Shown piece by piece: positions 4,518 to 61,159 of a stretch of 64,000 bases of DNA. Made by a program: the position numbers and the translations under genes. The number at the start of each line of letters is the position of its first letter. The stretch's first letter is position 1. The notes beneath the pieces are model-generated. The model was not told where the DNA came from, did not search any database, and was given only the letters and a program-made list of their open reading frames with translations. Source of the stretch: Candidatus Wolfebacteria bacterium GW2011_GWA1_44_24 (GTDB lineage Bacteria > Patescibacteriota > Minisyncoccia > UBA6257 > UBA9933); the NCBI GenBank assembly GCA_001001115.1, contig LCIO01000001.1, forward strand, positions 236,710 through 300,709, read 5' to 3'.

Positions 4518-5261
4518 CTACGGCCGCCACCTGGAAGCCGCAAAAATGACAACGATAGACGCTATAAAAATAATGATGTTTTTCAAAGCCCCTTGCCGGT
4601 TAAGGGTTCCGTTTAAATGATGGATAGCCGACTCTTTCATGACCAAAACCATCGCCAAAAGCAAAGCGCTTGAATTCAAAAAACCCAAAGGCAGAAGAGC
4701 GACGGCCCAAAAAAATTGAAGATTCAAGAAAGTAAAACCAGCGGCCAATAAATTTACTTTCGCCGCCGTTTGTCCCAAATTCAGCGCGAAACGAAACGCT
4801 TCGTGCCAAAGCAAAAATATTGCCAGACCGGCCAATAGATATTTCAACGCAAAAAAATTTGATTTATCGGAAAGAAAAAACGCGACAAAAACCAAAAACA
4901 TCAAAGAATTGTTGAAAAGATGATAGAGCGGCTGGCGATGGACGAAAATCAGATTTTTAATTCCAAGCAGAAGAAAAAATAAAAAAGATAAAATCAAAAC
5001 AACAGCTAATCGCAACGGCCATTGTTCGTTGAACGGATAAAAAACGAAAAGCAAAGAAACAACGAGGAGGATTAGAAAAGAAGAAAGCATCGGCCGGGTT
5101 TTGGAAAACGGCTGGAAATAAAAATAAGCGGCCGCGACAATGAAAATAACGGTCAACGGCCAGCCGGCGGCCGCCAAAAATACGAACAAGCCGAAAATCG
5201 CGGCCTTAAGCGCCGATCGTGATGTGTTCCCCCTTAAAACCAAGCTTAATTTTTTTGGCAT
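4518..5261 (-). CDS. Hypothetical polytopic membrane protein (start uncertain)
   Basis: ORF 4518..5303 encodes ~7 hydrophobic helices. The 5' part overlaps the clpB 3' end, so the start is probably ATG 5261 or TTG 5189. Confidence 0.5.
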
Positions 5262-7845
5262 CTTTAAGTTCGCCTTTAATAATCCGATTGGCCAATTCGT
5301 CAAGAATCAATTTTTGAATCATCCGCTTGATCGGCCTCGCGCCGTAATCCGGGTCAAAACCGGCTTCCGCAATATGCCGTCTTAAGGAATTGTCGACAGT
5401 GACTTCAAATCCCCGGTTGGCCAATTTTTCCTTCAGCATTCCGAGTTGAAGGTCGATGATTTTTTCAATTTCTTTTTTCCCCAAAGGATTAAAAATGATG
5501 ATTTCATCCAAACGATTCAAAAATTCCGGACGGAAAGTTTCTTTAAGCGATTCTTCCACCCGTTCTTTGAATTCATCGGTTTTGTTCTTTTGCTCGTCAA
5601 CGTCTATTCTGGTGCTAAAACCCAATTTGGAAATTTCCCGGAAATACTCGCTGCCGACGTTTGAAGTCAGAACGATAATGGAATTTTTGAAATTGATTAT
5701 TTTGCCCTTGCCGTCGGTCAATCGACCGTTATCCAAAACCTGAAGTAAAAGGTTAAAAACTTCAGGATGGGCTTTTTCGATTTCATCGAATAAAATCAGG
5801 CTGTATGGCCGATGACGGACGGTTTCGGTTAATTGCCCGCCTTCTTCGTGTCCCACATAGCCGGGCGGCGAGCCGATAAGCCGCGCCACGCTGTGGCGTT
5901 CCATATATTCGGACATATCGATTCTAATCAGGGCTTTTTCGTCGTTAAACATGAATTCCGCCAAAGCCCGCACCAGCTCGGTTTTGCCCACGCCGGTCGG
6001 ACCCAAAAACATAAAAGAGCCGAAAGGTTTGTCTTCGGGGGCCAAGCCCGCGCGCGCCCGGCGAAGAGCGCTGGAGATGGCTTTAATCGCTTTTTCCTGG
6101 CCGATGACTCTTCCGGAAAGAACTTCCTCTATTTTGGAAAGTTTTTCCGCTTCAGACTCAAGCATTCTCGAAACCGGAATGCCGGTCCAGCGGGAAACCA
6201 CGGCCGCAATGTCTTCTTCGTCAACTTTTTCTTTTATAAAATGCTGTTCCGCGCCTTTTTTTATTTTCCCCCTTCCTCTTTCAACATATTTTTTTTCAAA
6301 AGCTTTCAACTCTTTTTCCGCCTGAGGCAATTCGCCATAGACGATTTTCGCCACTTTCTCCAAATTTCCTTCCCGCTCGGCCAGTTCCGCTTCTTGGCGC
6401 AAATTTTCCACCTTCTTTCTCAAATTATGAAATTCTTCGAAGGTGATTTTTTCTCCGTGCCACTTGGCGGAAAGTCCGTCGTTTTTCTCTTTCAATTTAC
6501 GCAATTCTTTTTCAATTTCTTTCAGCCGCTTGTCTTTTTTATTTTCAGAAAGCAGAGCCTGGCGTTCAATTTCCAAACGAGTTATTTCTCTTCTCGTTTT
6601 GTCGATTTCTTTCGGCAAACTTTCGGTTTCCAGCCGCCGGCCGGCCGCGGCCTCGTCAATCAAATCAATGGCTTTGTCCGGCAAAAACCGGTCGGTAATG
6701 TAACGAGCCGAAAGATTGACGGCCGAAACAATCGCCTCGTCGGAAATTCTGATGCCGTGATGAAGCTCGTATTTTTCTTTAAGCCCGCGCAAAATCGCGA
6801 CGCTGTCGTTAATCGAAGGTTCATCAACCATAACCGGCGAAAATCGCCTCTCCAAAGCCGCGTCTTTTTCAATGTGGCGCTGATATTCCCTGATGGTGGT
6901 GGCGCCGATAGCCCTCAATTCTCCCCGAGCCAAAGCGGGTTTAAGCAAATTGGAAGCGTCAATCGCTCCTTCGGCCGCGCCGGCGCCGACAATCATATGA
7001 ATTTCATCGATAAAAAGAATGAGCTTCCCGCTCGATTGCTGGATTTCTTTGATAAACGCTTTGAGCCGGTCTTCGAATTCCCCCCGAAATTTCGTGCCGG
7101 CGATTAAAGACCCCAAATCAAGCATGATGATTTCTTTGTTCTTCAGCGGTTCCGGCACGTCGCCCGAAGCAATCCGCTGAGCCAATCCTTCAACCACCGC
7201 TGTTTTGCCCACGCCGGGTTCGCCGATTAAGACCGGATTATTTTTGGTGCGCCGGCTTAAAATCTGAATCAAGCGCCGAAGCTCTTCTCCCCGGCCGATG
7301 ACCGGGTCAAGTTTTCCGGCTCTGGCTGAATTCGTCAGATTAACGGCGTATTTTTCCAACACCTGAAATTTTGATTCCGGCGTCTCATCGGTAATCCGCA
7401 TTGAACCGCGAAGTTGGGCTAAAACCCTAATCGCCGTTTCCCGGCGCAAACCAAAGTTTTCCAGAATCCGGCTGGCGCTAGAACCGCTTTCCAAAATCGC
7501 CAGAAGCAAATGTTCGCAAGAAATAAATTCGTCTTTCTGGTGGCCGGCGATTTTCGCCCCCCGATCCAAAACCTGCATCAATTCCTGGGAAAGATAAAGC
7601 TGGCCGACATTAGAACCGCCGAAAATTTTCGGCTGTTTCTTCAATTCTTCATCAAGCGCCTGAGCCAGAGATTCAAGATTGACGCCGGCCCTTATCAGAA
7701 GCGGCCTGACAAGAGATTGTTCATCGGAAATCAAAGAGATTAAAAGATGGATAATCTTAAGTTCGCCGTGATTTTCTCGGGCCGCCAAATCCTGGGCATT
7801 TTGAAGGGCCTCCTGGGCCTTGATTGTAAAACGATGAAAATTCAT
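5206..7845 (-). CDS. clpB: ATP-dependent chaperone ClpB (two AAA+ modules with coiled-coil middle domain)
   Basis: 879 aa. Clp_N repeats, Walker [10 protein letters not shown] and GPTGVGKTE, long coiled-coil M-domain between NBD1 and NBD2. Confidence 0.95.
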
Positions 7846-18616: not shown

Positions 18617-18690
18617 GTAAAGATTTTTGAAACCTAAACGGAAGCGCAGTCCGCCAGCTGGCGGACGTGAGCGGGTTGAAAAAACTTTAC
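18617..18690 (+). ncRNA. Copy A of a conserved 52-nt structured core (18629-18680) with its own outer stem, in the 5' UTR of the 3D-domain gene
   Basis: Core GAAACCTAAACGGAAGCGCAGTCCGCCAGCTGGCGGACGTGAGCGGGTTGAA is 51/52 identical to 24398-24449. Outer stem GTAAAG-a-TTTTT / AAAAA-CTTTAC differs from copy B but still pairs. Confidence 0.55.
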
Positions 18691-18727: not shown

Positions 18728-19192
18728 ATGAATAAATACAATAAATATCTGGCGGCTCTCTTGGTTGTGATGAGTTTTAACGTTCTTCAAACCAATGTTT
18801 TCCAGCCAAAAATAGCCGTTATTAACGAAAATTATTCGCTAGACGACTCTTTAACGGCCCAAAATCGGCCTGTTTTGACGCTTGAGAATCAAAAAGTTGC
18901 CAAGCCAAAAATCTTAAAAGTTTGGTTAACCGCTTATTCCAGCACGCCCGAGCAAACCGATGAAACGCCGTTTATCACGGCTTCTGGAAGTTATGTCAGG
19001 AACGGCGTTGTGGCGGCCAATTTCCTGCCAATGGGAGCTAAAATCCGCATTCCAGAAGTTTTCGGCAGCCAAATTTTCGTCGTTGAAGACCGAATGCATC
19101 CCAGATATCAGAACTATATTGATATCTGGTTTCCCGATGCCGAACAAGCCAAAAATTTCGGCAAAAAAATAAGTAAAATAGAAATCCTATAA
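18728..19192 (+). CDS. 3D (MltA/RlpA-like double-psi beta-barrel) domain protein, secreted
   Basis: Signal/TM N-terminus. LTAYSSTPEQTDETPFITASG...VAANFLPMGAKIRIPE...VVEDRM is typical of the 3D domain. Confidence 0.75.
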   Translation: MNKYNKYLAALLVVMSFNVLQTNVFQPKIAVINENYSLDDSLTAQNRPVLTLENQKVAKPKILKVWLTAYSSTPEQTDETPFITASGSYVRNGVVAANFLPMGAKIRIPEVFGSQIFVVEDRMHPRYQNYIDIWFPDAEQAKNFGKKISKIEIL

Positions 19193-24374: not shown

Positions 24375-24472
24375 ACAACAAATACAAAATTGTTTCTGAA
24401 ACCTAAACGGAAGCGCAGTCCGCCAACTGGCGGACGTGAGCGGGTTGAAGAAACAATTTTGTATTCGTTGTT
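24374..24472 (+). ncRNA. Copy B of the structured element: 23-bp stem + 53-nt core region = 99 nt, inserted inside the PMM coding frame
   Basis: AACAACAAATACAAAATTGTTTC (24374-24396) pairs 22/23 with GAAACAATTTTGTATTCGTTGTT (24450-24472). The core contains the perfect hairpin GTCCGCC-aact-GGCGGAC. Confidence 0.6.
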
Positions 24473-24476
24473 GACG

Positions 24477-25418
24477 ATGGCTGTTATGAATTATATAAAA
24501 ATTTACGCTGATTTTCTTAAAAAATTTTTACGACCTCGACAAAAATTGAAGGTGGTTTTTGATTGTTCCAATGGCGTTGCCGGCCCGATAATTAAACAGC
24601 TGACAACCGACAGCCAACAACTGAAAACTTTTTTGATTAATGAAAAATCCGATGGCAATTTTCCGGCTCATGGGCCGAATCCGCTTAAACCCAACGCGTT
24701 AAAACAACTCCAAAATGAAGTCAAAAAACACAAAGCTACTCTCGGAATAATTTTTGACGCCGACGGCGACAGAGTATTTTTCATCGATAATCGCGGCCGC
24801 TTTGTTGACCCGGACGTGATTTCTCGATTGTTAATTTGGCACCTTAAGCCAAAAAAAGTTGTTATCGATGTCCGGACGGGATGGCTCGTAAGAAAATTCA
24901 AAATTAAAAATTCAAAATTAAAAATTCACGAATCAAGCGTTGGGCATTATTTCATAAAAAAATTAATGCGCAAAACTAATGCGGATTTAGGCGTCGAACG
25001 TTCGGGGCATTATTATTTCGGACCAAACATTCATAATCAAAAAAATCTTTATTTTGATTCGGGAATCCTTGCCGCCATTGAAACAATCAATGCGGTTTCA
25101 AAATTGCCGTATTCTTTGGCGGATTTCAGCGATTTATTTCCGCCGCTTTATCGCTCCGGCGAAATCAACATAAAAATCGGCCAGCCGCAAAATATAATAA
25201 AAAAAATTGAAAAAAAATTGAAAAATCAAGCAATAAAAACTTCTCGCCTTGACGGCTTAACGATGGAATTCAATCCTTCGGCAAGCCCGGGAAAAGCCTG
25301 GCGGTTTAATCTGCGGCCGTCAAACACCGAACCGCTGGTCAGATTAAATATTGAAGCAACCGATAAACGATTTCTTGACAATTTTCTTAAAAAGATTTAT
25401 TCTTTAATTAGCAATTAG
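24477..25418 (+). CDS. Phosphomannomutase/phosphoglucomutase, C-terminal fragment (domains II-IV)
   Basis: KLKVVFDCSNGVAG, Mg loop FDADGDR, sugar loop ERSGHYYF, phosphate loop RPSNTEP. First in-frame ATG after the element is 24477 (ORF track starts at TTG 24390 inside the element). Confidence 0.75.
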   Translation: MAVMNYIKIYADFLKKFLRPRQKLKVVFDCSNGVAGPIIKQLTTDSQQLKTFLINEKSDGNFPAHGPNPLKPNALKQLQNEVKKHKATLGIIFDADGDRVFFIDNRGRFVDPDVISRLLIWHLKPKKVVIDVRTGWLVRKFKIKNSKLKIHESSVGHYFIKKLMRKTNADLGVERSGHYYFGPNIHNQKNLYFDSGILAAIETINAVSKLPYSLADFSDLFPPLYRSGEINIKIGQPQNIIKKIEKKLKNQAIKTSRLDGLTMEFNPSASPGKAWRFNLRPSNTEPLVRLNIEATDKRFLDNFLKKIYSLISN

Positions 25419-29703: not shown

Positions 29704-29834
29704 GTGCAGTATTCTTGAATTAGTCCGAACGCATTTCGTCCTGAGCTTGTCGAAGGGTGAGGAAGTCCCACCGCGAAAATTCGGAAAGGCGGCGGAGCCG
29801 CACCGCTGACAATTTCAAGTTTTTCTTTGGCGGC
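29704..29834 (-). repeat. Modular intergenic repeat, copy 1 (modules A + variable GC hairpins + D)
   Basis: Minus strand GCCGCCAAAGAAAAACTTGAAATTGTCA...GAAATGCGTTCGGACTAATTCAAGAATACTGCAC. Same ends as 51148-51285. Confidence 0.8.
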
Positions 29835-30784: not shown

Positions 30785-30869
30785 TGGTGCCGAGGGTGGG
30801 ATTTGAACCCACACGCCTTGCGGCGCCAGCTCCTAAAGCTGGTGCGTCTGCCAATTTCGCCACCTCGGC
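30785..30869 (-). tRNA. tRNA-Leu (anticodon UAG), CCA encoded
   Basis: GCCGAGG/CCTCGGC acceptor, CCAGC-TTTAGGA-GCTGG anticodon arm, long variable arm, GTGGG-TTCAAAT-CCCAC T arm, ACCA end. Confidence 0.88.
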
Positions 30870-33299: not shown

Positions 33300-33628
33300 A
33301 AATCTTAAACAAAATTTCATTATTTTCAACAATTTTTTATTTAATGGGCATTTTCCCATTAATTGGTTTTGCTCAAGAATCTCCCGTTAAAAGCATTGAT
33401 GATGTAATGAATGTTTTAAAAAGCATTGTTAATGTGATGTACACGGCTTTCTTTATTGTGGCGATTATGTTTATAATCCTTGCGGCTTTTAATTATTTAA
33501 CCGCCCAAGACGATCCGGAAAAAATCAAAAGCGCCACTCGCCAGATAATGTGGGCGGCGGTGGCGATAGCGGTGGCTTTAATTTCGGTAGGATTTAATAA
33601 AATTGTAGAAAGTTTTATAAAACCATAA
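33296..33628 (+). CDS. VirB2/T4SS-pilin-like small membrane protein, paralog 2
   Basis: ATGA overlap with paralog 1. Signal peptide...AAFNYLTAQDDPEKIKSATRQIMWAAVAIAVALISVG. Confidence 0.55.
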   Translation: MKILNKISLFSTIFYLMGIFPLIGFAQESPVKSIDDVMNVLKSIVNVMYTAFFIVAIMFIILAAFNYLTAQDDPEKIKSATRQIMWAAVAIAVALISVGFNKIVESFIKP

Positions 33629-34090
33629 ATGTTTTTGAATATAAAAAAAATCTTTATTTTATTATTGATATTGGGAATTATTTTCCCGATTTTTTCATTT
33701 GCTGCGTTTCCTGTGGGAGAAGTTGCTGGGCCTGGAGGAAAATTACCAGAAGGCGCGGGAATTAAAGAAGTTTCTGATTTAGTTGGCATTCTTACAAAAG
33801 TTCTTGCGTGGATATATACAATTCTTTTTATTATTGCGATTATATTCATCCTCATTGCCGCTTTCACTTATTTAACCGCTCAAGCGGACCCGGAAAAAAT
33901 CAAAACTGCCACTCGCCAGATAATGTGGGCGGCGGTGGCGATAGCGGTGGCTTTAATTTCGGTGAGTATTAATGTGATAATAAGCAATTTTATAAGCCCA
34001 AGCGATAGTGGAGTTTTAGTAAATCCTAGCGGACAAAGTCCTTATTATTTAGATGTAGATCTTGGAATTTTCAATAAACCGCGAAAATAA
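33629..34090 (+). CDS. VirB2/T4SS-pilin-like small membrane protein, paralog 3 (with C-terminal extension)
   Basis: AAFTYLTAQADPEKIKTATRQIMWAAVAIAVALISVS. Start abuts the stop of paralog 2. Confidence 0.55.
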   Translation: MFLNIKKIFILLLILGIIFPIFSFAAFPVGEVAGPGGKLPEGAGIKEVSDLVGILTKVLAWIYTILFIIAIIFILIAAFTYLTAQADPEKIKTATRQIMWAAVAIAVALISVSINVIISNFISPSDSGVLVNPSGQSPYYLDVDLGIFNKPRK

Positions 34091-34096
34091 ATAAAG

Positions 34097-34465
34097 ATGA
34101 AAAAAGTTTTAATTTTATCAATATTTTTATCAATATTTATTGCAAATAATTCTTTTGCCATAACTGCCGGAACAATTCCTTCAGCCGAGCAATTGGGCGT
34201 TTCTAACGCCCCGAAAATTGAAAAAGTTGACACATTAGTTAATATTATTAGAAATATCGTAAAGTGGACATATATAATTTTCTTTATCGTGGCCGTATTT
34301 TTTATAATTTTAGCGGCTTTCACTTATTTAACCGCTCAAGCGGACCCAGAAAAAATCAAAACTGCCAATAAACAAATTCTTTACGCGGTTATCGCCATTG
34401 TTATCGCTCTTTTAGCCATCGGCTTTGATACGATAATAAAATCATTTCTGCAAAGCGGCGCTTGA
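34097..34465 (+). CDS. VirB2/T4SS-pilin-like small membrane protein, paralog 4
   Basis: AAFTYLTAQADPEKIKTANKQILYAVIAIVIALLAIG. Confidence 0.55.
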   Translation: MKKVLILSIFLSIFIANNSFAITAGTIPSAEQLGVSNAPKIEKVDTLVNIIRNIVKWTYIIFFIVAVFFIILAAFTYLTAQADPEKIKTANKQILYAVIAIVIALLAIGFDTIIKSFLQSGA

Positions 34466-34533
34466 TTGCTTTTTAGCTTGAATGTTTTAATATATTAATA
34501 TGTATTGAAAAGGTCGCAAATGCTTATTTAATT

Positions 34534-34887
34534 ATGAAAACAAAAATTTTTATTATTGCCGCGGGATTATTGGCAGTTTCGGCAATCGCGGGAAATGTCG
34601 CTTTAGCGATTCAAATTCCGGGTATCAGTCAGGTCGGCCCCACATCGGTGACCGGAACAGTGGATGTGATTAAAAATATTGTTAAGTGGGTTTATATTCT
34701 ATTCTTCATCATCGCCGTTCTTTTCATTATTTTGGCGGCTTTCAATTATTTGACTGCCCAGGGCGACGAAGAAAAAGTCAAAACCGCGAAAAATCAGATT
34801 ATTTACGCGGTAGTGGCGATTGTCGTGGCTTTGCTGGCCGTCAGTTTTGACACCATTATCAGCAATTTCCTGCAAAGCGGTCAATAA
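34534..34887 (+). CDS. VirB2/T4SS-pilin-like small membrane protein, paralog 5
   Basis: AAFNYLTAQGDEEKVKTAKNQIIYAVVAIVVALLAVS. Confidence 0.55.
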   Translation: MKTKIFIIAAGLLAVSAIAGNVALAIQIPGISQVGPTSVTGTVDVIKNIVKWVYILFFIIAVLFIILAAFNYLTAQGDEEKVKTAKNQIIYAVVAIVVALLAVSFDTIISNFLQSGQ

Positions 34888-49299: not shown

Positions 49300-49977
49300 A
49301 TGATAATTCAAAATTTAGCGGATGCCACAATTAGTTCACTTCTGAACACTTGGGGCGGTGTCATCGGTTTTATTCCGTCGTTGATCGGCGCGTTGATTAT
49401 TTTAATCATCGGCTTGATTGTCGCGGCCGGTTTGAAATCGCTGGTAGAAAGAATTCTTAGCGCCGTCAAATTGGACAACTTGCTTCGCCGATTGGAGGTG
49501 GAAAGTTATTTCCAGCGCGCGGGAATGTCGTTGAATTCAGGCAAATTTTTCGGCTCATTAGTTTACTGGTTTTTCGTGATTGTTTTTGTTCTAGCGGCAG
49601 CCGATACGGTTGGCCTAAGAGGGCTTTCTCAGTTTCTGGGAGAAGTCGTCGCTTACATTCCAAACATTATCGTTGCCGCATTGATAATGCTGGTAACGGC
49701 ATTGGTGGCTAGCGCTCTAAGAACCGCGGTCAGCTCATCGGTGATGAGCGCCAAGCTTCACGCTTCCAAATTTTTGGGAACATTGGTTTGGTGGGCGGTG
49801 GTGGTTTTCGGCTTTATCAGCGCTTTGATACAGCTGGGAATCGCGCCCATGCTTCTCAACACCCTGATTACCGGCTTGGTTGCGATGTTGGCCTTAGCCG
49901 GCGGCATTGCTTTCGGTTTAGGAGGCAAAGATTACGCGGCTTATCTTTTAAACAAATTAAAAGAGCGCGTTGAATAA
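49300..49977 (+). CDS. Membrane protein with conserved TM-helix repeats (mechanosensitive-channel-associated type)
   Basis: 225 aa, repeated helix-loop units (IPNIIVAALIMLV..., LGIAPMLLNTLI...). Confidence 0.45.
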   Translation: MIIQNLADATISSLLNTWGGVIGFIPSLIGALIILIIGLIVAAGLKSLVERILSAVKLDNLLRRLEVESYFQRAGMSLNSGKFFGSLVYWFFVIVFVLAAADTVGLRGLSQFLGEVVAYIPNIIVAALIMLVTALVASALRTAVSSSVMSAKLHASKFLGTLVWWAVVVFGFISALIQLGIAPMLLNTLITGLVAMLALAGGIAFGLGGKDYAAYLLNKLKERVE

Positions 49978-49995
49978 AAAATTCATAGATTATTC

Positions 49996-50027
49996 AAAAA
50001 CCCCCGCATTGCGGGGGTTTTTGTTTT
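49996..50027. terminator. Bidirectional intrinsic terminator
   Basis: AAAAA-CCCCCGC-att-GCGGGGG-TTTTTGTTTT. Confidence 0.85.
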
Positions 50028-50072
50028 CTTATTTACTATCCTATTTTACGATCGTTAAATAGGATAGTAAAC

Positions 50073-50408
50073 TTATTTCCCTCTGCCTTCGTATTTTTCA
50101 AAAATCGTCCAAAAACTGAGGTTTTTTTCTCCCTGATTATAAACCTTGTGGAAATCGCCGGCAGGCACAAGCACCATATCCCCGGTTTTGACTTGAATTT
50201 TGCGGCTGGCCGCCTCCATCAATCCTTCGCCGTCAATAAAAACGTAAACCTCATCGGCATCGACATGGGAATGACCGGTGGTGGCTTTTTGCGGCTCAAG
50301 CTCGGTCAAAGAAACCGTTAAATGATTCAGGTCAGATAAATCGTAAACTTTATAAATCTCGTTGTCTCTTATAAGCTTGGCCGATTGTTTATACTCCTTA
50401 ATATCCAT
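50073..50408 (-). CDS. Cupin-domain protein
   Basis: 111 aa. GHSHVDADEVYVFIDGEG...GDMVLVPAGDFH, a two-motif cupin signature. Confidence 0.65.
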   Translation of the reverse strand: MDIKEYKQSAKLIRDNEIYKVYDLSDLNHLTVSLTELEPQKATTGHSHVDADEVYVFIDGEGLMEAASRKIQVKTGDMVLVPAGDFHKVYNQGEKNLSFWTIFEKYEGRGK

Positions 50409-52340: not shown

Positions 52341-52481
52341 ATGAAAAAATTTTCTTTTACCCAAAATTCAAAATATGGTTTCCTCCAGAGGTGGGCAGGC
52401 GAGCCGATGTTTTTCTCTGGGTTCTTTTGCGGTTTTGAGCGGAGCCGCACCGCTGACAATTTCAAGTTTTTCTTTGGCGGC
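52341..52481 (-). repeat. Modular intergenic repeat, copy 3 (A + B + C)
   Basis: Minus strand GCCGCCAAAGAAAAACTTGAAATTGTCAGCGGTGCGGCTCCGC-TCAAAACCGCAAAAGAACCCAGAGAAAAACATCGGCTCG...ATTTTGGGTAAAAGAAAATTTTTTCAT. Confidence 0.8.
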
Positions 52482-53267: not shown

Positions 53268-53387
53268 TTAAAAAATTTTCTTCCCCCAAAATTAAAATAT
53301 GGTTCGAGCCGATGTTTTTCTCCGGGTTCTTTTGCGGTTTTGAGCGGCGCGGCTTCGCCGCCTTTCCGATCAAACTTGCAATTTCCT
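53268..53387 (-). repeat. Modular intergenic repeat, copy 4 (A' + B + C) filling the tRNA-Arg to alaX spacer
   Basis: Minus strand GGAAATTGCAAGTTTGA...TCAAAACCGCAAAAGAACCCGGAGAAAAACATCGGCTCG...ATTTTGGGGGAAGAAAATTTTTTAATCCT-ATG. Confidence 0.8.
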
Positions 53388-53390
53388 ACA

Positions 53391-53465
53391 TGGTGCCCCC
53401 GCGAGGAATCGAACCTCGATTTTAGCCTTCGGAGGGCTATGTTCTATCCATTGAACTACGGAGAC
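53391..53465 (-). tRNA. tRNA-Arg (anticodon CCG), CCA encoded
   Basis: GTCTCCG/CGGGGGC acceptor (two G-U pairs), GTTC/GAAC D stem, TAGCC-CTCCGAA-GGCTA anticodon arm, CGAGG-TTCGATT-CCTCG T arm. Confidence 0.8.
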
Positions 53466-56328: not shown

Positions 56329-57696
56329 TTATAACACAACCGCGTCTCCCATTGAAGGCACAATCGCCTCAACCGCCAAGTCGTCCATAATTTTGCCAGC
56401 CAAAGGCAAAGACTGGTCTTCTTCTCCCTGGACCACAAAAACTTTTTTTAATGATTTTTCGGCCGACCTCAGCCACTTCAACAGTTTTAAACTGTCGGCG
56501 TGAGCCGAATAACCTCCGATATTTTCTTTCCGGCAATTAACCGAAACTTCTTCGCCAAAAATTTTCACTTTTTTCTCTCCGTCCAAAATCCGCCGGCCCA
56601 AAGAATCTTTTGACTGATAACCGATGAATAAAATGGCGCTTTTGTGGTCGGGCAAATAACGAAATTCATGATGAAGAATTCTGCCGCCCTGAGACATTCC
56701 GCTGCCGGCGATAATGATTTTCGGCGGCGGCACGCCGTTGATTTCTTTTGACTGTTCGGTGGTTAAAGAGAATTTTAATCCCGGAAAGTCAAAAATGGCG
56801 TCTCCTTTGCGCATCAAAGCCAGGGATTCCTTGTCGAAATAATCCGAATCTTGGGAATATTTCTTATAAATCGCGGTAAGTTTAATGGCCAGCGGACTGT
56901 CGATAAAAATCGGAACTCGCGGAATACGGCCGTTTTCCACAAGTTCATTAAGTTCATAAAGCAAGTCCTGCGTCCGTTCCATGGCAAAAGCCGGAATCAT
57001 CAACGTTCCGCCGGCCTCTATCGTATCTTCGATCACGTCTTCTAAAATGTCTTTTCTTCTTTCCAAATCTTCGTGGACTCTATTGCCGTAAGTTGATTCA
57101 ATAACCGCGTAATCGACAGCCGGAAGATTTTCTGTGTCTCTGACAATCGGAGTGGCAACATTGCCCAAGTCGCCGGAAAAAGCGATTTTTTTGCCGTCAA
57201 CGGCAACAACGATGAAGCTTGAGCCAAGAATATGGCCGGCGTCAAAAAATTCTATCTCAATCCCGCCCTGGGCAGAGCCAATTCGAAATTTTTGGCGATA
57301 CCTGATTGTTTTCCAAAGCTCCATTGTTTTATTGATGTCTTCAAGAGAGTAAAGCGCTGGCATCTTTTTTTCTTCGGCTTCCTTATTCAAAAGATGCTCG
57401 GAATCAATCAAAAGATGTTCGGCAAAATTTTTGGTCGGCGCCGTAGAAAAAATTTCTCCTCTGAAGCCGTCTTTATAAAGTTTCGGCAAACGACCGGTGT
57501 GGTCTATATGAGCGTGAGTAATCAAAACCGCGTCAATGATTTTCGGATCATAGGGAAACGGCTCGAAATTGTGACGCTCGCAAAAACTCGAACCCTGAAA
57601 AAGCCCGCAATCGATCAAAATTTTCGCGTTTTCGCTTTCCAATAAATAATTGGCGCCGGTTACCGTCCGGGCCGCGCCGTAAAAAGTCAGTTTCAT
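56329..57696 (-). CDS. MBL-fold beta-CASP RNA-metabolising hydrolase (CPSF73-like)
   Basis: ITHAHIDHTG motif, beta-CASP insert, C-terminal RMMBL-like region. 455 aa. Confidence 0.8.
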   Translation of the reverse strand: MKLTFYGAARTVTGANYLLESENAKILIDCGLFQGSSFCERHNFEPFPYDPKIIDAVLITHAHIDHTGRLPKLYKDGFRGEIFSTAPTKNFAEHLLIDSEHLLNKEAEEKKMPALYSLEDINKTMELWKTIRYRQKFRIGSAQGGIEIEFFDAGHILGSSFIVVAVDGKKIAFSGDLGNVATPIVRDTENLPAVDYAVIESTYGNRVHEDLERRKDILEDVIEDTIEAGGTLMIPAFAMERTQDLLYELNELVENGRIPRVPIFIDSPLAIKLTAIYKKYSQDSDYFDKESLALMRKGDAIFDFPGLKFSLTTEQSKEINGVPPPKIIIAGSGMSQGGRILHHEFRYLPDHKSAILFIGYQSKDSLGRRILDGEKKVKIFGEEVSVNCRKENIGGYSAHADSLKLLKWLRSAEKSLKKVFVVQGEEDQSLPLAGKIMDDLAVEAIVPSMGDAVVL

Positions 57697-58148
57697 AAAT
57701 AAATTATTCTTTCATTTTCCCTTTTCCCGTGTTCAAATTTTATCTTAATTATATTTTTGGGTAAATACCTTTTAACTACTTCCGGCCATTCAATCAAAAC
57801 AATGTTCTGCGGATTGTTTAAAATTTCTTTTAATCCCAATTCCAGCAGTTCTTTGGGTTTGTGAAGGCGATAATAATCAATATGATAAATATTTTTAAAT
57901 CTTAAATTTTTGATCTTAAATCTTTTTGCCAGTACAAAAGTCGGACTGGTTATTTTTTTTCTGATTCCCGCGCCCCTCATAAATCCTTGGACAAAAGTTG
58001 TTTTGCCCGTTCCCAAATGGCCGCTTAAAGCCAAAACCAGAGCAGCTTTGCCGGAAAATTTCGTTTTAAGGATTTCTCGGGCCAGTAAGGCGGCGAATTT
58101 TTTAGTCTTAATGAAACCGTTGGATTCTATCGAGCTATATTTAACCAT
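57693..58148 (-). CDS. tsaE: tRNA t6A biosynthesis ATPase TsaE
   Basis: LSGHLGTGKTTFVQG P-loop, HIDYYRL, 151 aa. Confidence 0.8.
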   Translation of the reverse strand: MVKYSSIESNGFIKTKKFAALLAREILKTKFSGKAALVLALSGHLGTGKTTFVQGFMRGAGIRKKITSPTFVLAKRFKIKNLRFKNIYHIDYYRLHKPKELLELGLKEILNNPQNIVLIEWPEVVKRYLPKNIIKIKFEHGKRENERIIYL

Positions 58149-59128
58149 TTATAAGTCTCTTCTGTTGCCATCCTGCCGATCGGCGTTCTCTGAAGAAAAC
58201 CGATTTTTATCAAATAGGGCTCGTAAACTTCTTCAATAACTCCTTTTTCTTCGCCCAAGGCCGCGGTCAAGGCGTTGACTCCCACCGGTCCACCCCCAAA
58301 TTTCTCAATTATCATTTTCAAAAGATGGCGGTCGTAGGATTCCAGTCCCATTTCGTCAATTTCCAAAATTTTAAAAGTTTCCGAGACAATCTCTTTGTCA
58401 ATAATTTTTAAATTTCTCATCTCGGCAAAATCTCTTGAACGCTTAAGCAAACGGTTAGCCAAGCGGGGAGTGAAGCGCGACGCCCTAGCAATGGCTGAAA
58501 CCGCTTCCGAAGCGATTTCAAAACCAAGGATTTTGGCCGAGCGCTCGACAATCGCTTCGATGTCTTGTTTTTCATAATAATCAAATCTGAAAATCGCGCC
58601 AAAACGCGAACGCAAAGGAGGAGAAATTAAATTAACCCGGGTGGTGGCGCAAATCAGAGTAAAATAAGGCAAGTCCAGGGAAATCGCCCTTGCCGAAGGG
58701 CCCTTGCCGAGAGTCAAATGAATTTTCCTCTCGTCAATGGCTGAATAAAATAATTCTTCAACGGGCCTCGGTACCCGATGAGCTTCATCAATAAACAAAA
58801 TGTCTTTTTCTTCCAAGTTGGATAAAATGGCCGCCAAATCGCCGATTCGGCTTAAACTCGGCCCCGAGACAACCCGCAAATTACTTTTGCTCTCTGCGGC
58901 GATTAAATGAGCCAGAGTGGTTTTCCCCAGTCCCGGCTGGCCGTAGAATAACAAATGATCGAATGGTTCGTTTCTTTTATTAGCGGCCTCCAAAATTATT
59001 TTCAGGCCTTTTTTAATTCTTTTCTGGCCGATATAATCATTCCAAGAAAAAGGCCTCAATACAGCATCGAGAGATTGGTCATCTTTCGGTTTTTGATTCC
59101 TTGTTTTCTTAATATTGACTTTTTTCAT
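58127..59128 (-). CDS. ruvB: Holliday junction branch migration helicase RuvB
   Basis: LRP..W.DYIGQ, GQPGLGKTTLA, FIDEAHR, sensor and winged-helix C-terminus. Confidence 0.95.
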   Translation of the reverse strand: MKKVNIKKTRNQKPKDDQSLDAVLRPFSWNDYIGQKRIKKGLKIILEAANKRNEPFDHLLFYGQPGLGKTTLAHLIAAESKSNLRVVSGPSLSRIGDLAAILSNLEEKDILFIDEAHRVPRPVEELFYSAIDERKIHLTLGKGPSARAISLDLPYFTLICATTRVNLISPPLRSRFGAIFRFDYYEKQDIEAIVERSAKILGFEIASEAVSAIARASRFTPRLANRLLKRSRDFAEMRNLKIIDKEIVSETFKILEIDEMGLESYDRHLLKMIIEKFGGGPVGVNALTAALGEEKGVIEEVYEPYLIKIGFLQRTPIGRMATEETYKWLNIAR

Positions 59129-59143
59129 AAAGTATGCTATGTT
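59115..59143 (+). promoter_or_regulatory. Promoter TTGACT-N17-TATGTT pointing into the pilB-ruvB spacer (antisense to ruvB start)
   Basis: TTGACT 59115-59120, 17-nt spacer, TATGTT 59138-59143. The predicted +1 (~59150) sits at the foot of the 19-bp helix. Confidence 0.5.
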
Positions 59144-59149
59144 GTTGAT

Positions 59150-59302
59150 AACCGTCTGACCCTGTGGGCAAATTAGGAATTGTTTTTAGTTTTCGGACGA
59201 TTCGGCTCCGGCTGGGTCTATCCTCGGAACAATTCTTGACCTTGCGGGATTTATCTCCCGCGAGACTTTAACCAATGTGCCCACAGAGTCAGGCGGTTTT
59301 TT
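59150..59302 (+). ncRNA. Candidate ~150-nt structured sRNA (three-way junction closed by a 19-bp helix, ending in U6)
   Basis: CCGTCTGACCCTGTGGGCA (59152-59170) pairs with TGCCCACAGAGTCAGGCGG (59278-59296). Internal helices AGGAATTGTT/AACAATTCTT and GCGGGA-tttatc-TCCCGC. TTTTTT at 59297-59302. Confidence 0.5.
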
Positions 59303-61028
59303 ATTGCCACGCTATCGATCCGGTCGCCGATTCCACTTCCTCAAAAGAAGTGAAGCCGGAAATTATTTTCAAAATACCATCCTGCTGCATAGTTACCATT
59401 TCCTGATTCAGGGCGAATCTTTCAATCGCTGATTCCGGAGCTCCGGCCAAAATCAAATCCTCCAACTCTTTACGAGAGGAAAGGTCGCGATGAGCCGGAT
59501 TAATAAGCAATTTTTCATACTCCGGGTCGTTTAATAATAATTCATAAATTCCGATTCGGCCAAGATAACCGGAGTTATTACATTTTAAGCATCCTTTCGG
59601 CTGATAAATTTTAATTTCTTTGAAATTGTCCCGGCTGACTCTTCTCGGCAATTTATCAAAGAATTTCTCGATTTTGTTTTTAAGTTCGGGGTTGGTCTCT
59701 TGGGGACTTTTACAAAACCGGCACAAGCGGCGAACCAGTCTTTGGGCGATTATCAAATTCAGCGCCGGCCCGATGCTGGACGGCTTAACGCCCAAATCAA
59801 GCAGCCGAGGAACGACGCCCGAAGCCGAATTGGCGTGAACCGTTGAAAAAACCAAATGTCCGGTCAGGGCGGCTTGAATACCGATTTCCGCTGTTTCTTT
59901 GTCGCGCATTTCGCCGACTAAAATAACGTCTGGGTCCTGACGCATTAAAGAACGTAAACCGTTGGCAAAAGTGTACCCCGCCCCTTCGTCAACCTGGGTC
60001 TGTTCAATCCCTTCCAAATGATACTCAATCGGATCTTCAATGGCGATGATTTTTATGGTCGGGCTTTTTTTATATTTAAGGAAAGCGTAAAGGGTGGTGG
60101 TTTTGCCGGCGCCGGTCGGTCCGGCGTTTAAAATCATGCCGTTGGGCCTTTTCAATTCGGTTTTAATAATTTCTAAATCGTCTTCCCTGATCCCCAAATC
60201 CGACAGGGTTAAGTTGACGACTTCCGGGTCAAGCAAACGCATTACCGCCACTTCCCCGAATTCCGAAGGCGCGATCGCCACCCTGACTTCGATTTTTTTA
60301 TCAGGGAAAGAAATGCTGAATCGGCCGTCTTGCGGTTTGTTGCGAATATTAATTTTCAGATCGGAAAGCAATTTGACGCGCGAAAGCAATCGGGAATAAA
60401 AATCGCGCCCAAAATTTTCAAACGCGTCGTGCAAAATGCCGTCAATTCTAATTCTTAATTTCACCCTATCTTCAAGCGGCTCAAAATGAACATCCGATGC
60501 CCGCAAGACAAGCGCGCCGAACAAAACAATTTCAAAAATTTTGCCCAACTCATCATTAAGAAAATCAATTGAGCCAAGTGCTTCGGTAAAATTTTTAACC
60601 GAAACCAATTTCTCTTTAAGTTTTAAGAATTTGTCCGTCTGAATTTCAATTTTGCCGGTGATTTGCTTTTGACGCTCGGAAATAAAGCGGTAAAAATCAA
60701 AAGCGCGGGAAAGGCCGCTTAAAGAAGCGGTAAAAAGCCGAATTTCAAACCCCTGGGACTTCAGTTTTTTAGTCAATTCTTTGACTAAAAACGAGTCGGG
60801 GTCCGCGGCCGCTATAAATAATTTTTTTTCTTTAATATCAACGGCAACAATTTGCGTCTTTTTGGCGATTTCCTTAGAAATCAATCCCAGCGCTTCAGTA
60901 TTAATGGGTAAGGCCGACAAATCAATATAGGGATGGCCACTTTTTTGAGCTCTTCTTTGAGCGTCTCGCTCTTCGGCTTGGCGCCGCAAATTAGTCAATT
61001 TTTGCTGAAGATTAGAACCTGGCAACAT
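59301..61028 (-). CDS. pilB: Type II/IV secretion ATPase (GspE/PilB family)
   Basis: N-terminal T2SSE_N domain, GPTGAGKTTT Walker A, Asp and His boxes, tetracysteine CRFC...CLKC. Start set to ATG 61028. Confidence 0.88.
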   Translation of the reverse strand: MLPGSNLQQKLTNLRRQAEERDAQRRAQKSGHPYIDLSALPINTEALGLISKEIAKKTQIVAVDIKEKKLFIAAADPDSFLVKELTKKLKSQGFEIRLFTASLSGLSRAFDFYRFISERQKQITGKIEIQTDKFLKLKEKLVSVKNFTEALGSIDFLNDELGKIFEIVLFGALVLRASDVHFEPLEDRVKLRIRIDGILHDAFENFGRDFYSRLLSRVKLLSDLKINIRNKPQDGRFSISFPDKKIEVRVAIAPSEFGEVAVMRLLDPEVVNLTLSDLGIREDDLEIIKTELKRPNGMILNAGPTGAGKTTTLYAFLKYKKSPTIKIIAIEDPIEYHLEGIEQTQVDEGAGYTFANGLRSLMRQDPDVILVGEMRDKETAEIGIQAALTGHLVFSTVHANSASGVVPRLLDLGVKPSSIGPALNLIIAQRLVRRLCRFCKSPQETNPELKNKIEKFFDKLPRRVSRDNFKEIKIYQPKGCLKCNNSGYLGRIGIYELLLNDPEYEKLLINPAHRDLSSRKELEDLILAGAPESAIERFALNQEMVTMQQDGILKIISGFTSFEEVESATGSIAWQ

Positions 61029-61035
61029 TGATAAT

Positions 61036-61041
61036 ATTATA
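61036..61041 (-). promoter_or_regulatory. -10 box TATAAT 7 nt upstream of pilB ATG (leaderless geometry)
   Basis: Minus strand gttaTATAATattatcaATGttgcc. Confidence 0.4.
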
Positions 61042-61159
61042 TAACAGAAATAGTTTTCCACAACTAATTCACAGATTCTTGGTTTCGCGTCATTTGACTA
61101 AATCTATAATCAAAATAAAATAGGGATAATCGTTTGCAAAATAAAAATTTAAAACAACC

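What the first reader, a model, noticed from the sequence alone, without database searches (positions are those of the whole stretch)
59115..59302. Promoter-to-terminator delimited ~150-nt structured sRNA candidate, antisense-oriented between pilB and ruvB
The 172-bp pilB-ruvB spacer is dominated by a 145-nt element (59152-59296). Its ends form a 19-bp helix, CCGTCTGACCCTGTGGGCA with TGCCCACAGAGTCAGGCGG, containing one G-U pair and one mismatch. Inside are at least two more helices: AGGAATTGTT/AACAATTCTT, and GCGGGA-tttatc-TCCCGC. Together these give a three-way junction. On the plus strand a TTGACT-N17-TATGTT promoter places +1 at about 59150, the foot of the helix. The 3' arm is followed directly by TTTTTT. 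So the unit looks like an independent plus-strand RNA gene whose promoter overlaps the ruvB start codon in antisense. The size and closing helix are compatible with a 6S-like, Y-RNA-like or novel sRNA. I did not find the SRP helix-8 motif. On the minus strand it could alternatively be a structured ruvB leader.
Basis: partly seen in the sequence, partly recalled or inferred. Interest (0 to 1): 0.6.

Follow-up and report, generated by a model that had tools for sequence, protein, structure and literature searches.

The report
New conserved structured RNA in Parcubacteria
The flagged spacer holds a real, strongly promoted RNA gene of about 150 nt whose fold is kept by compensatory base changes in at least 136 relatives among candidate-phyla-radiation bacteria; it matches no known RNA family, nearly always sits tail-to-tail with a pilus-type ATPase gene, and its job is unknown.

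Summary
Window 59150-59302 (+) is a single-copy RNA gene. It has a near-consensus extended -10 promoter, a 19-bp closing helix and a U-run.

It is not a chance fold (MFE -73 kcal/mol, z = -8.5). Homologs lie in the same spacer in 9 of 9 relatives fetched through RuvB. A covariance model finds it in about 65 species-level Patescibacteria genomes and 79 metagenome contigs, 136 distinct sequences in all. About 95% of cells pair, and 28-37 of 43 pairs show double changes. No shuffle matched this (0/500). G·U outnumbers A·C 7-9 fold, which fixes the plus strand.

The promoter travels with the RNA (58/67 loci against 0.4% background). Rfam 15 gives no hit at this RNA even at E<=10, for the window element or for 10 diverse members. 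The defining features of 6S and SRP were tested and not met, Y RNA had no model hit, and the literature search found no description.

The conserved core is the helix CUGNGGG/CCCNCAG, a UAG bulge, a GGA/UCC clamp and a UNCG-capped hairpin carrying a G·U next to a G-C. The third hairpin is variable.

A PilB/GspE-like gene converges on the RNA's 3' end in 122 of 123 loci. The function is not known. My best guess is a stable, protein-bound, trans-acting RNA.

The parts
59115..59143 (+). Promoter of the RNA gene. The -35 is TTGACT (59115-59120). A TG lies at 59135-59136. The -10 is TATGTT (59138-59143). The ruvB start codon (59126-59128, minus strand) lies in the promoter spacer.
   Evidence: Promoter scan. 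TTGAC[AT]-N13-16-TGnTAnnnT occurs within 90 nt upstream of 58 of 67 distinct family members. The background rate is 0.4% of 90-nt windows in the same loci.
59150..59302 (+). The RNA gene, about 153 nt. The start is inferred at about 59150, 7 nt after the -10. The end lies in the U-run.
   Evidence: Covariance model R1 scores 133.2 bits (E = 4e-37) on the plus strand and 34 bits on the minus strand. It is the only copy in the window with filters off. The fold has z = -8.47.
59152..59170 (+). P1 5' strand, CCGUCUGACCCUGUGGGCA. The distal part, CUGUGGGC, is conserved in sequence. C59161 faces the conserved A59287.
   Evidence: The proximal pairs covary. The distal CUGNGGG/CCCNCAG is conserved even in hits found with a pattern that did not include P1.
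59278..59296 (+). P1 3' strand, UGCCCACAGAGUCAGGCGG.
59176..59186 (+). P2a 5' strand, GGAAUUGUUUU. It pairs with 59226-59236.
   Evidence: Ten of the 11 P2a pairs show double changes in alignment A4, and 11 of 11 in A6.
59187..59194 (+). Asymmetric internal loop, 5' side. It holds the conserved UAG (59187-59189) and a variable U/A-rich linker (59190-59194). Opposite it are only U59224 and C59225.
   Evidence: Column frequencies: U 43, A 46 and G 50 of 52 sequences. These positions were not part of the genome search pattern.
59195..59223 (+). Conserved apical module. It comprises the GGA/UCC clamp (59195-59197 with 59221-59223), a 1x2 internal loop (C59198 / U59219-A59220), and an 8-bp hairpin (59199-59206 with 59211-59218). 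The hairpin carries a G·U beside an invariant G-C, two pairs below a UCCG tetraloop (59207-59210).
   Evidence: The base of the hairpin covaries, for example GAUU/GGUC, GAGC/GCUC, GGUU/AACC and GGCU/AGCC.
59226..59236 (+). P2a 3' strand, GGAACAAUUCU. It is preceded by the invariant UC (59224-59225).
59241..59264 (+). P3, the variable hairpin CUUGCGGGA-uuuauc-UCCCGCGAG.
   Evidence: It is in the minimum-energy fold. Its length and sequence vary across the family. Harrisonbacteria-type members have two hairpins here, and L170 has none.
59265..59277 (+). J3/1, a single-stranded joiner (ACUUUAACCAAUG). It varies across the family.
59297..59302 (+). U-run directly after P1, giving an intrinsic-terminator-like 3' end. 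It overlaps the pilB stop codon (59301-59303, minus strand) by 2 nt.
   Evidence: A run of at least 4 T sits at the 3' end in 38 of 67 members. In L041 a separate GC hairpin with a T-run follows 25 nt downstream instead.
59301..61061 (-). PilB/GspE-family secretion ATPase gene, convergent with the RNA. It is context rather than part of the RNA.
   Evidence: NCBIfam GspE 430 bits and PilB 429 bits, both below the equivalog cut-offs. A homolog converges on the RNA 3' end within 1 kb in 122 of 123 assessable loci, and within 60 nt in 98.
58127..59128 (-). ruvB, divergent from the RNA. Its first codons overlap the RNA promoter. It is context rather than part of the RNA.
   Evidence: NCBIfam RuvB 435 bits, above the cut-off. 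A divergent ruvB lies within 700 nt in 90 of 117 assessable loci.

Best explanation
SHOWN. Window 59150-59302 (+) is a single-copy gene for a structured RNA of about 150 nt that belongs to a previously undescribed family. The family is widespread in Parcubacteria/Paceibacteria-type candidate-phyla-radiation bacteria, including Wolfe-, Colwell-, Harrison- and Brennerbacteria and related groups. The gene is transcribed on the plus strand from its own near-consensus sigma-70 promoter with an extended -10. Transcription ends at, or just after, a 19-22-bp closing helix.

The conserved core has four parts:
1. The distal part of the closing helix, CUGNGGG/CCCNCAG, followed by an invariant A.
2. A long second arm with an asymmetric internal loop, UAG plus 2-7 nt facing UC.
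3. A 3-bp GGA/UCC clamp.
4. An 8-bp hairpin capped by a UNCG-type loop, with a non-Watson-Crick G·U (or G·G) pair stacked on an invariant G-C.

A third hairpin is variable and dispensable.

INFERRED. Sequence is conserved inside helices and in a small bulge. There is no conserved single-stranded stretch long enough to pair with a target. I therefore think the RNA works through its shape, as a stable and abundant trans-acting RNA that is bound by, scaffolds or titrates a protein. In other words it is a housekeeping-type ribonucleoprotein RNA specific to this lineage, not a base-pairing regulator.

Its near-invariable tail-to-tail position against the PilB/GspE-like gene has two possible readings. 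One is that its terminator is interlocked with that gene's stop codon. The other is a functional link that is still unknown. In this window its strong promoter inside the pilB-ruvB spacer must also run against transcription from pilB towards ruvB, as a side effect or second role.
For: - Fold: -73 kcal/mol, z = -8.47.
- Synteny-based homologs: found in 9 of 9 loci of RuvB relatives at 60-70% identity.
- Covariance model R1: about 65 species-level genomes, all Patescibacteria, and 79 metagenome contigs.
- Covariation in A4: 95.6% of cells paired, 28 of 43 pairs with double changes, 0 of 500 shuffles as good, slid controls 36-52%.
- Covariation in A6: 94.3% of cells paired, 37 of 43 pairs with double changes, 0 of 500 shuffles as good.
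- P1 distal sequence: conserved, with N:N' covarying, in hits found by a pattern that did not constrain P1.
- Strand: G·U:A·C is 341:46 and 475:53. Antisense model scores are 19-43 bits against 42-145 bits for sense.
- Promoter: 58 of 67 loci against 0.4% background. It moves with the RNA in L011, L014 and L016.
- Independence from ruvB: intact RNA in loci without an adjacent ruvB, and with a separate terminator in L041.
- No known family: Rfam 15 finds nothing at this RNA at E<=10, for the element or across the whole window at E<=1. Among 10 diverse members the only overlapping match is a chance-level mir-22 hit in L090, 19.7 bits against a gathering score of 48, E = 6.1.
- Single copy in the window with filters off.
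- Absent from the viral collection.
Against: - No expression data. The transcript, its ends and its abundance are inferred from promoter and terminator signals.
- No protein partner is identified. 'Protein-bound' rests only on the pattern of conservation.
- The strict linkage to the PilB-like gene (122 of 123 loci) fits a cis or partner relationship at least as naturally as a generic trans-acting role.
- In this window the promoter overlaps the ruvB start. The scan shows no minus-strand promoter or terminator in the spacer. So sense and antisense transcripts probably overlap, and an antisense effect cannot be excluded.
- Alignments A4 and A6 were fitted to the model, which favours the model's structure.
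- Part of the apparent invariance (CTGYGGG, GGAYR, TCCTC and CCCRCAGA in A4; the P2 core in A6) comes from the search patterns. Only the 10 synteny-derived sequences, and the reciprocal unconstrained regions, are free of this bias.
Confidence: 0.5

Rival explanations
1. A cis-antisense or transcription-interference element of a pilB-ruvB operon. Under this reading the RNA matters mainly because it is transcribed against the pilB-to-ruvB read-through transcript. Colliding polymerases and a perfect duplex of about 150 bp with the intercistronic RNA would uncouple or lower expression of ruvB, or shape the pilB 3' end. The structure would serve only stability and termination.
For: - The RNA lies on the opposite strand between two co-directional genes.
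- Its -35 overlaps ruvB codons 3-5, and its U-run overlaps the pilB stop.
- The scan finds no minus-strand promoter-like or terminator-like site in 59129-59300.
- A convergent PilB-like gene is present in 122 of 123 loci, at a median of 16 nt.
- A divergent ruvB is present in 90 of 117 loci.
Against: - A pure antisense role needs no particular sequence or fold. Yet helices covary, and specific nucleotides are conserved across PilB identities down to about 40% (UAG, GGA/UCC, CUGNGGG, G·U/G-C).
- The RNA is intact in 27 of 117 loci without an adjacent ruvB.
- In the Wolfebacteria group it is also intact. There it lies 470-930 nt from pilB, and in L041 a separate terminator follows the RNA.
Confidence: 0.2
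2. A dedicated RNA partner, either cofactor or regulator, of the orphan PilB/GspE-family hexameric ATPase encoded tail-to-tail with it.
For: - The linkage holds in 122 of 123 loci. These were found by searching for the RNA alone, without using the protein.
- It holds over PilB identities from 100% down to about 34-45%.
- Outer flanks are rearranged in the same loci.
- The ATPase gene has no PilB/PilT-type paralog in the 64-kb window by tblastn. Its neighbours are replication and repair genes.
Against: - The orientation is convergent rather than operonic.
- The overlap of the terminator with the stop codon is by itself a neutral reason for the pair to stay together.
- I know of no RNA-dependent member of this ATPase family. 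That is my own knowledge, not a test.
- Nothing here tests binding.
Confidence: 0.08
3. A radically remodelled version of a universal bacterial RNA. The candidates are SRP 4.5S RNA (a rod with a conserved asymmetric loop near a capped apical helix) and 6S RNA (a long closing stem and a hairpin on the 3' side of a central loop).
For: - The size, the paired ends, the strong housekeeping-type promoter, single copy, and presence in every relative examined.
- The asymmetric loop has its long side on the 5' strand, as in SRP helix 8. That comparison rests on my own knowledge of E. coli 4.5S RNA.
- No SRP or 6S gene was seen in the 64-kb window or in 286 kb of member loci. This sample covers only a small part of each genome, so it is weak evidence.
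Against: - No Rfam hit to any SRP or 6S model at E<=10, for the window RNA or for 10 diverse members.
- The tetraloop is UNCG-type, not GNAR.
- There is no purine-rich symmetric loop. An 8-bp regular helix takes its place.
- The 5' joiner between P1 and P2 is only 0-8 nt in most members, and P2a covaries. There is therefore no 6S-type open bubble.
- CPR RNase P RNAs, although diverged, are still found by the Rfam model (PMC8172020). This suggests that universal RNAs remain recognisable in these genomes.
Confidence: 0.05
4. Not an RNA with a function of its own. It would be an elaborate convergent terminator, a DNA-level inverted repeat or mobile element (a MITE with 19-bp terminal inverted repeats), or the structured minus-strand leader of ruvB.
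For: - 19-bp terminal inverted repeats flank about 107 bp.
- The position between convergent transcription units, with a U-run.
Against: - Single copy in the window and in every locus.
- Internal helices covary, and their loops are conserved.
- It has its own promoter in 58 of 67 loci.
- G·U:A·C of 7-9:1 favours the plus strand over the ruvB-sense strand.
- P1 is conserved in L041, where termination is provided by a separate hairpin.
Confidence: 0.03

Closest known systems
SRP (4.5S) RNA, Rfam Bacteria_small_SRP
   Same: A rod-like RNA with paired 5' and 3' ends. It is a single-copy gene with a strong promoter. A conserved asymmetric internal loop, with its long side on the 5' strand, lies a few pairs below a tetraloop-capped apical helix. 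Sequence is conserved inside the apical module while the basal helix merely covaries.
   Different: No GNAR tetraloop; the loop here is UNCG-type. There is no symmetric loop with the conserved A/G residues that bind Ffh. The apical helix has 8 regular pairs. A branch hairpin is often present. No model hit at E<=10.
6S RNA (Rfam RF00013)
   Same: About 150 nt, with a long closing stem and a second long irregular stem. An optional hairpin sits on the 3' side of the junction. The promoter is a strong sigma-70 type, and the RNA is expected to be abundant.
   Different: No large two-sided central bubble. The 5' joiner is 0-8 nt, and the adjoining helix covaries. Primary sequence is strongly conserved, which is unlike 6S. 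No model hit.
Orphan structured bacterial ncRNA classes found by comparative genomics (for example the raiA motif RNA, PMC10861870, and the candidate motifs of PMC5737381)
   Same: Defined by covariation. It is restricted to one lineage, intergenic, promoter-to-terminator, and of unknown function.
   Different: It matches none of those motifs as held in Rfam 15. It comes from uncultured CPR bacteria. It has an unusually strict positional link to one gene.
Cis-encoded antisense RNAs embedded between operon genes or overlapping convergent 3' ends
   Same: Opposite strand between co-directional genes. The promoter overlaps the start of the downstream gene, and the terminator overlaps the stop of the upstream gene.
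   Different: The fold and specific nucleotides are conserved over deep divergence. The RNA is retained where one or both overlaps are lost.
phi29 prohead RNA. This is a lead from my own memory, not tested here.
   Same: A three-way-junction RNA of about 120-170 nt that works with a ring ATPase.
   Different: That system is a phage packaging motor with a different ATPase family. Here there is no phage context, and the RNA is absent from viral contigs. There is no evidence of any interaction.

Membership tests
6S RNA | Match to the Rfam 6S covariance models | tested here: not met
   No 6S hit at E<=10 on 59050-59400. None at E<=1 on the whole window. None at E<=10 on 10 diverse members.
6S RNA | A large central bubble that is single-stranded on both sides, flanked by closing and terminal stems (an open-promoter mimic) | tested here: not met
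   The joiner between P1 and P2 is 0-8 nt in most members. It is 1-2 nt in the CUGGGGG class. P2a begins directly after it and covaries in 10-11 of its 11 pairs.
6S RNA | Binds the sigma-70 holoenzyme and templates product RNA | not testable with these tools
   Needs biochemistry.
SRP 4.5S RNA | Match to the Rfam SRP covariance models | tested here: not met
   No SRP hit.
SRP 4.5S RNA | Helix 8 apex: a GNAR tetraloop on a short helix above a symmetric loop with conserved A/G residues | tested here: not met
   Loop columns are U47 / C29,U21 / C36,A12 / G51 of 52 sequences, a UNCG-type loop. Below it are 8 regular pairs and a 1x2 loop of pyrimidines or mixed bases. The description of the SRP consensus comes from my own knowledge.
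Y RNA / YrlA | Match to Rfam Y RNA models; a Ro-binding helix with a conserved bulged C; an rsr gene nearby | tested here: not met
   No model hit. The neighbours are ruvB, a PilB-like gene, dnaA, tsaE and a beta-CASP gene. Presence of rsr elsewhere in the genome was not tested.
Riboswitch / cis-regulatory leader | Lies in the 5' untranslated region of a gene on the same strand, with a short switchable P1 | tested here: not met
   Downstream on the plus strand is the 3' end of a convergent gene. P1 is 19-22 bp.
Cis-antisense RNA | The transcript overlaps an oppositely transcribed gene or its untranslated regions | tested here: inconclusive
   In the window the promoter overlaps the ruvB start and the U-run overlaps the pilB stop by 2 nt. 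The scan shows no minus-strand promoter or terminator in the spacer. No transcript data are available. The overlap with ruvB is lost in 27 of 117 loci.
Intrinsic terminator | A GC-rich stem followed directly by a U-run | tested here: met
   Met in the window and in 38 of 67 members. In L041 the U-run follows a separate downstream hairpin, so termination is not the only role of P1.
MITE / repetitive palindromic element | Several dispersed copies with terminal inverted repeats | tested here: not met
   One copy in 64 kb. One sense hit per locus.
RNase P RNA / tmRNA / 5S rRNA | Match to the Rfam models | tested here: not met
   No hits. The size of about 150 nt and the lack of the conserved motifs also argue against these. 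CPR RNase P RNAs are still detectable with RF00010 (PMC8172020).

The most novel reading that the evidence does not exclude
The RNA is an obligate partner of a conserved machine in these reduced-genome bacteria. One possibility is an RNA subunit or regulator of the orphan PilB/GspE-family ring ATPase to which its gene is locked in 122 of 123 loci. That would be the first RNA-dependent member of that ATPase family. The other possibility is a lineage-specific replacement for a universal RNA such as SRP or 6S RNA.
Probability: 0.12. Interest if true: 0.88.

Novelty: new variant of a known kind. Interest (0 to 1): 0.68.

Why it matters
Candidate-phyla-radiation bacteria have tiny genomes with few recognised regulatory RNAs, and nearly all are uncultured. 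This RNA is single-copy and strongly promoted. It is conserved in sequence and shape across at least several candidate phyla of Parcubacteria. That profile suggests a core cellular component that current annotation misses entirely.

The finding adds a new family for RNA databases. The model built here already separates true members from chance matches by more than 100 bits.

It also gives a concrete handle for metatranscriptomics and pull-downs in groundwater communities. Its strict pairing with a pilus/secretion-type ATPase gene raises a testable question about an RNA link to that machinery or to the neighbouring repair genes.

Tried and rejected
- **Known RNA families.** I ran Rfam at gathering and at permissive thresholds on the element, the whole window and 10 diverse members. 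No family matched this RNA; the only overlapping match was a chance-level mir-22 hit in one member (L090, E = 6.1).
- **SRP, 6S, Y RNA, RNase P, 5S, tmRNA.** Rejected on the models and, for SRP and 6S, on the anatomy.
- **MITE or repeat.** Rejected because the element is single-copy.
- **Minus-strand leader.** Rejected by G·U:A·C ratios of 341:46 and 475:53.
- **Riboswitch controlling antisense read-through into pilB.** Considered and dropped. P1 is 19-22 bp, and no alternative pairing is conserved.
- **Known 3D motifs in the UAG/UC loop** (K-turn, sarcin-ricin loop, UAA/GAN). The sequences do not fit. The base after UAG varies, and GGA/UCC are Watson-Crick pairs.
- **CsrA-type GGA sites.** There are only two, and both sit in stems.
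- **S15-like G·U/G-C motif.** Noted as a resemblance only. About half of the metagenome members have G·G instead.
- **Proving SRP lies elsewhere.** I scanned 286 kb of member loci with Rfam and found only tRNAs, which is uninformative.
- **Finding Ffh.** A search of the held sequences for the M-domain motif found none.
- **Literature.** PMC8172020 concerns diverged RNase P RNAs, not this RNA.
- **Phage origin.** One pattern hit in viral contigs was not a family member.
Full report
**What is in the window**

The 172-bp spacer 59129-59300 separates two minus-strand genes. One is ruvB (58127-59128; NCBIfam RuvB 435 bits, above the cut-off). The other is a PilB/GspE-family ATPase gene (59301-61061; 430 and 429 bits, both below the equivalog cut-offs). 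dnaA follows on the plus strand at 61160.

- The 19-position closing helix is 59152-59170 with 59278-59296. It has one U·G and one C·A, and it is the only such pair in 64 kb.
- The two inner helices are present.
- The promoter TTGACT-N17-TATGTT is at 59115-59143, with a TG before the -10.
- A TTTTTT run follows directly after the helix.

The plus strand folds to -73 kcal/mol, against -41.7 +/- 3.7 for dinucleotide shuffles (z = -8.47). The minus strand folds less well (-60 kcal/mol, z = -5.68).

After a bulge come a GGA/UCC clamp and an 8-bp hairpin with a UCCG loop (59195-59223).

**Organism and first homologs**

RuvB's closest relatives in the protein collection are 60-70% identical. The named ones are Patescibacteria: Wolfebacteria, Colwellbacteria and Harrisonbacteria. 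Contigs from the same species carry an identical element.

I fetched nine loci through RuvB relatives. All keep the order PilB-like gene, spacer, ruvB. All nine spacers hold a recognisable homolog on the strand opposite to the genes.

These nine were found without using the RNA sequence. In them:
- The proximal half of the closing helix and the base of the apical hairpin change by compensatory substitutions. Examples are GAUU/GGUC, GAGC/GCUC, GGUU/AACC and GGCU/AGCC.
- CUGYGGG, UAG, GGA, UCCUC and CCCRCAG stay fixed.
- Where the spacer is longer (L011, L014, L016), the promoter sits next to the RNA rather than next to ruvB.

RNAalifold on eight of these sequences gives 43 pairs, 13 of them with double changes.

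**Family size and statistics**

I built a covariance model, R1, from those eight sequences.

*Genome scan.* A pattern scan of one genome per species returned 111 stretches.
- R1 accepts about 65 of them at 42-145 bits. Where their titles name a group it is Patescibacteria, apart from a few records labelled only 'bacterium'.
- The hits in Actinobacteria and other phyla are chance matches with no model hit.
- On the resulting alignment (52 distinct rows), 95.6% of cells pair and 28 of 43 pairs carry double changes. No shuffle out of 500 reaches any measure. Sliding the partners drops pairing to 36-52%.

- 79 contigs were accepted by the model.
- 94.3% of cells pair, and 37 of 43 pairs carry double changes, again with 0 of 500 shuffles as good.
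- In this set P1 was unconstrained, yet its distal part is still CUGNGGG/CCCNCAG. The N:N' pair appears as U-A, G-C, C-G and A-U.
- A further class reads CUGUAGGC/GCCUACAG and carries an extra hairpin after P1.

The conservation of sequence inside this helix is therefore real and not a product of the search. In all there are 136 distinct sequences, 117-180 nt long with a median of 144.

**Which strand, and is it its own gene?**

- G·U cells outnumber A·C cells 341:46 and 475:53. On the other strand these numbers would be reversed.
- The model scores the reverse strand about 100 bits lower (34 against 133 bits in the window).
- A strict promoter, TTGAC[AT]-N13-16-TGnTAnnnT, lies within 90 nt upstream of 58 of 67 distinct members. 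Only 0.4% of 90-nt windows in the same loci have one, and most of those are these same promoters.
- A run of at least four T follows the closing helix in 38 of 67 members.
- In the complete Wolfebacteria genome (L041) a separate GC-rich hairpin with a T-run follows 25 nt later. The closing helix is nevertheless conserved there, so it is more than a terminator stem.

**Anatomy of the family**

- **P1**: 19-22 bp, with a covarying proximal half and a sequence-conserved distal half. A C·A or U-A pair faces an invariant A.
- **Joiner after P1**: 0-8 nt, or an inserted hairpin in some lineages.
- **P2a**: 11 bp.
- **Asymmetric loop**: UAG plus 2-7 variable nt, facing an invariant UC.
- **Clamp**: GGA/UCC.
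- **Internal loop**: 1x2.
- **Apical helix**: 8 bp. Its upper part is Y-U-G-G-Y / R-C-K-R-R, with a G·U or G·G pair stacked on an invariant G-C.
- **Tetraloop**: UNCG-type.
- **P3**: variable. Some members have two hairpins here, and L170 has none.

The only conserved unpaired nucleotides are UAG and UC.

**Genomic linkage**

The loci in this count were found by searching for the RNA alone. A PilB-like gene converges on the RNA's 3' end within 1 kb in 122 of 123 assessable loci. It is within 60 nt in 98 of them, with a median of 16 nt. This holds although PilB identity falls to about 34-45%.

A divergent ruvB lies on the promoter side in 90 of 117 loci. Where it is missing, the neighbour is the LTD-domain gene that otherwise follows ruvB. 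In the Wolfebacteria group the neighbours are unrelated ORFs.

The ATPase gene has no PilB/PilT-type paralog in the 64-kb window by tblastn.

**What it is not**

- Rfam 15 gives no match at this RNA, at gathering or at E<=10, for the element or the whole window. Among ten diverse members the only overlapping match is a chance-level mir-22 hit in L090 (19.7 bits, E = 6.1).
- 6S is excluded by the missing two-sided bubble.
- SRP is excluded by the UNCG loop and the missing purine-rich symmetric loop.
- A riboswitch is excluded because no gene follows on the same strand and P1 is too long.
- A mobile element is excluded by single copy.
- A phage origin is excluded by absence from viral contigs.
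- Literature searches found no description. The one paper on diverged CPR RNAs concerns RNase P RNA, which is still detected by its Rfam model (PMC8172020).

**How it most likely works**

Shown: this is a real, independently promoted, structured plus-strand RNA gene of a new family.

Inferred: the conserved features are helical sequence, a three-base bulge, a clamp and a non-Watson-Crick pair next to a stable loop. There is no conserved single-stranded seed. The RNA therefore probably acts through its shape, as a stable trans-acting RNA recognised by a protein. I give this about 0.5. I give about 0.9 or more to the narrower claim that it is a genuine new RNA gene.

The strict pairing with the PilB-like gene may be neutral interlocking, since the terminator overlaps the stop codon. 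It may instead reflect a functional tie.

Rivals and my rough weights:
- A cis-antisense or interference role in a pilB-ruvB operon (0.2). The structural conservation argues against it, as does retention of the RNA without ruvB.
- A dedicated partner of the ATPase (0.08).
- A remodelled SRP or 6S RNA (0.05).
- A mere terminator, repeat or leader (0.03).

**Caveats**

- There are no expression data.
- The alignments used for the counts were fitted to the model.
- Part of the invariance follows from the two search patterns. Each pattern, however, left the other half of the molecule free.
- The record names of several metagenome-assembled genomes ('uncultured Candidatus Saccharibacteria', 'Microgenomatus') are depositors' labels and may be loose.
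- I could not inspect whole genomes for ffs or ssrS.

Noticed in passing
window 18624-18685 and 24393-24454 (+): Two 95%-identical copies of a core of about 60 nt: TGAAACCTAAACGGAAGCGCAGTCCGCCAGCTGGCGGACGTGAGCGGGTTGAAAAAAC. Each is enclosed by an outer inverted repeat whose sequence differs between the copies, which looks like a compensatory outer stem. Both lie just upstream of plus-strand ORFs (18728..19192 and 24390..25418). Neither has an Rfam hit. They are a candidate structured cis element.
   Followed up: partly
window 49945-50089: A pile of sub-threshold Rfam matches on both strands, to leader-type and small-RNA families among others (Phe_leader, rimP, Leu_leader, DPB, STnc490). The best E-value is 0.07. 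Probably a low-complexity or hairpin region, but no explanation was sought.
   Followed up: no
window 29781-29834, 52400-52481, 53305-53369: Direct and inverted repeats of 40-54 nt (D2, D14, I2), which lie within about 1 kb of the tRNA genes at 30788-30869 and 53394-53465. They may be duplicated tRNA flanks or integration scars.
   Followed up: no
window 33406-34880: Four copies of a 222-nt unit at 62-73% identity, spaced 375-456 nt apart (D1). Whether they lie within a coding region was not checked.
   Followed up: no
window 56329-57696 (-): A beta-CASP metallo-beta-lactamase protein in the same gene string as ruvB and tsaE. Its best NCBIfam match is the 'type VII CRISPR-associated Cas14' model, at 425 bits and far below the 800-bit cut-off. 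The next match is archaeal aCPSF1. It is conserved next to tsaE in the relatives.
   Followed up: no
L041 5225-5660 (Wolfebacteria complete genome CP011209.1): In this lineage the RNA is followed by its own GC-hairpin terminator (5237-5262). A non-coding-looking, GC-richer stretch of about 400 nt then precedes the PilB-like gene, and ruvB is not adjacent.
   Followed up: partly
L021, L081, L088, L092 (insert after P1); L135, L187, L192, L205 and others (CUGUAGGC class); L018, L079 and the Harrisonbacteria type; L170: Lineage-specific additions to the RNA. Some members have a hairpin inserted between P1 and P2. Some have a second hairpin after P3. One member has no P3 at all.
   Followed up: partly
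window 59115-59128 and the equivalent position in L010, L013, L030, L042, L070: The -35 box of the RNA promoter (TTGACT) and the T-run after it are the reverse complement of ruvB codons 1-5 (MKKVN). The start of RuvB and the RNA promoter therefore constrain each other. In L011, L014, L015 and L016 a second promoter-like copy stays at the ruvB start while another sits next to the RNA.
   Followed up: partly
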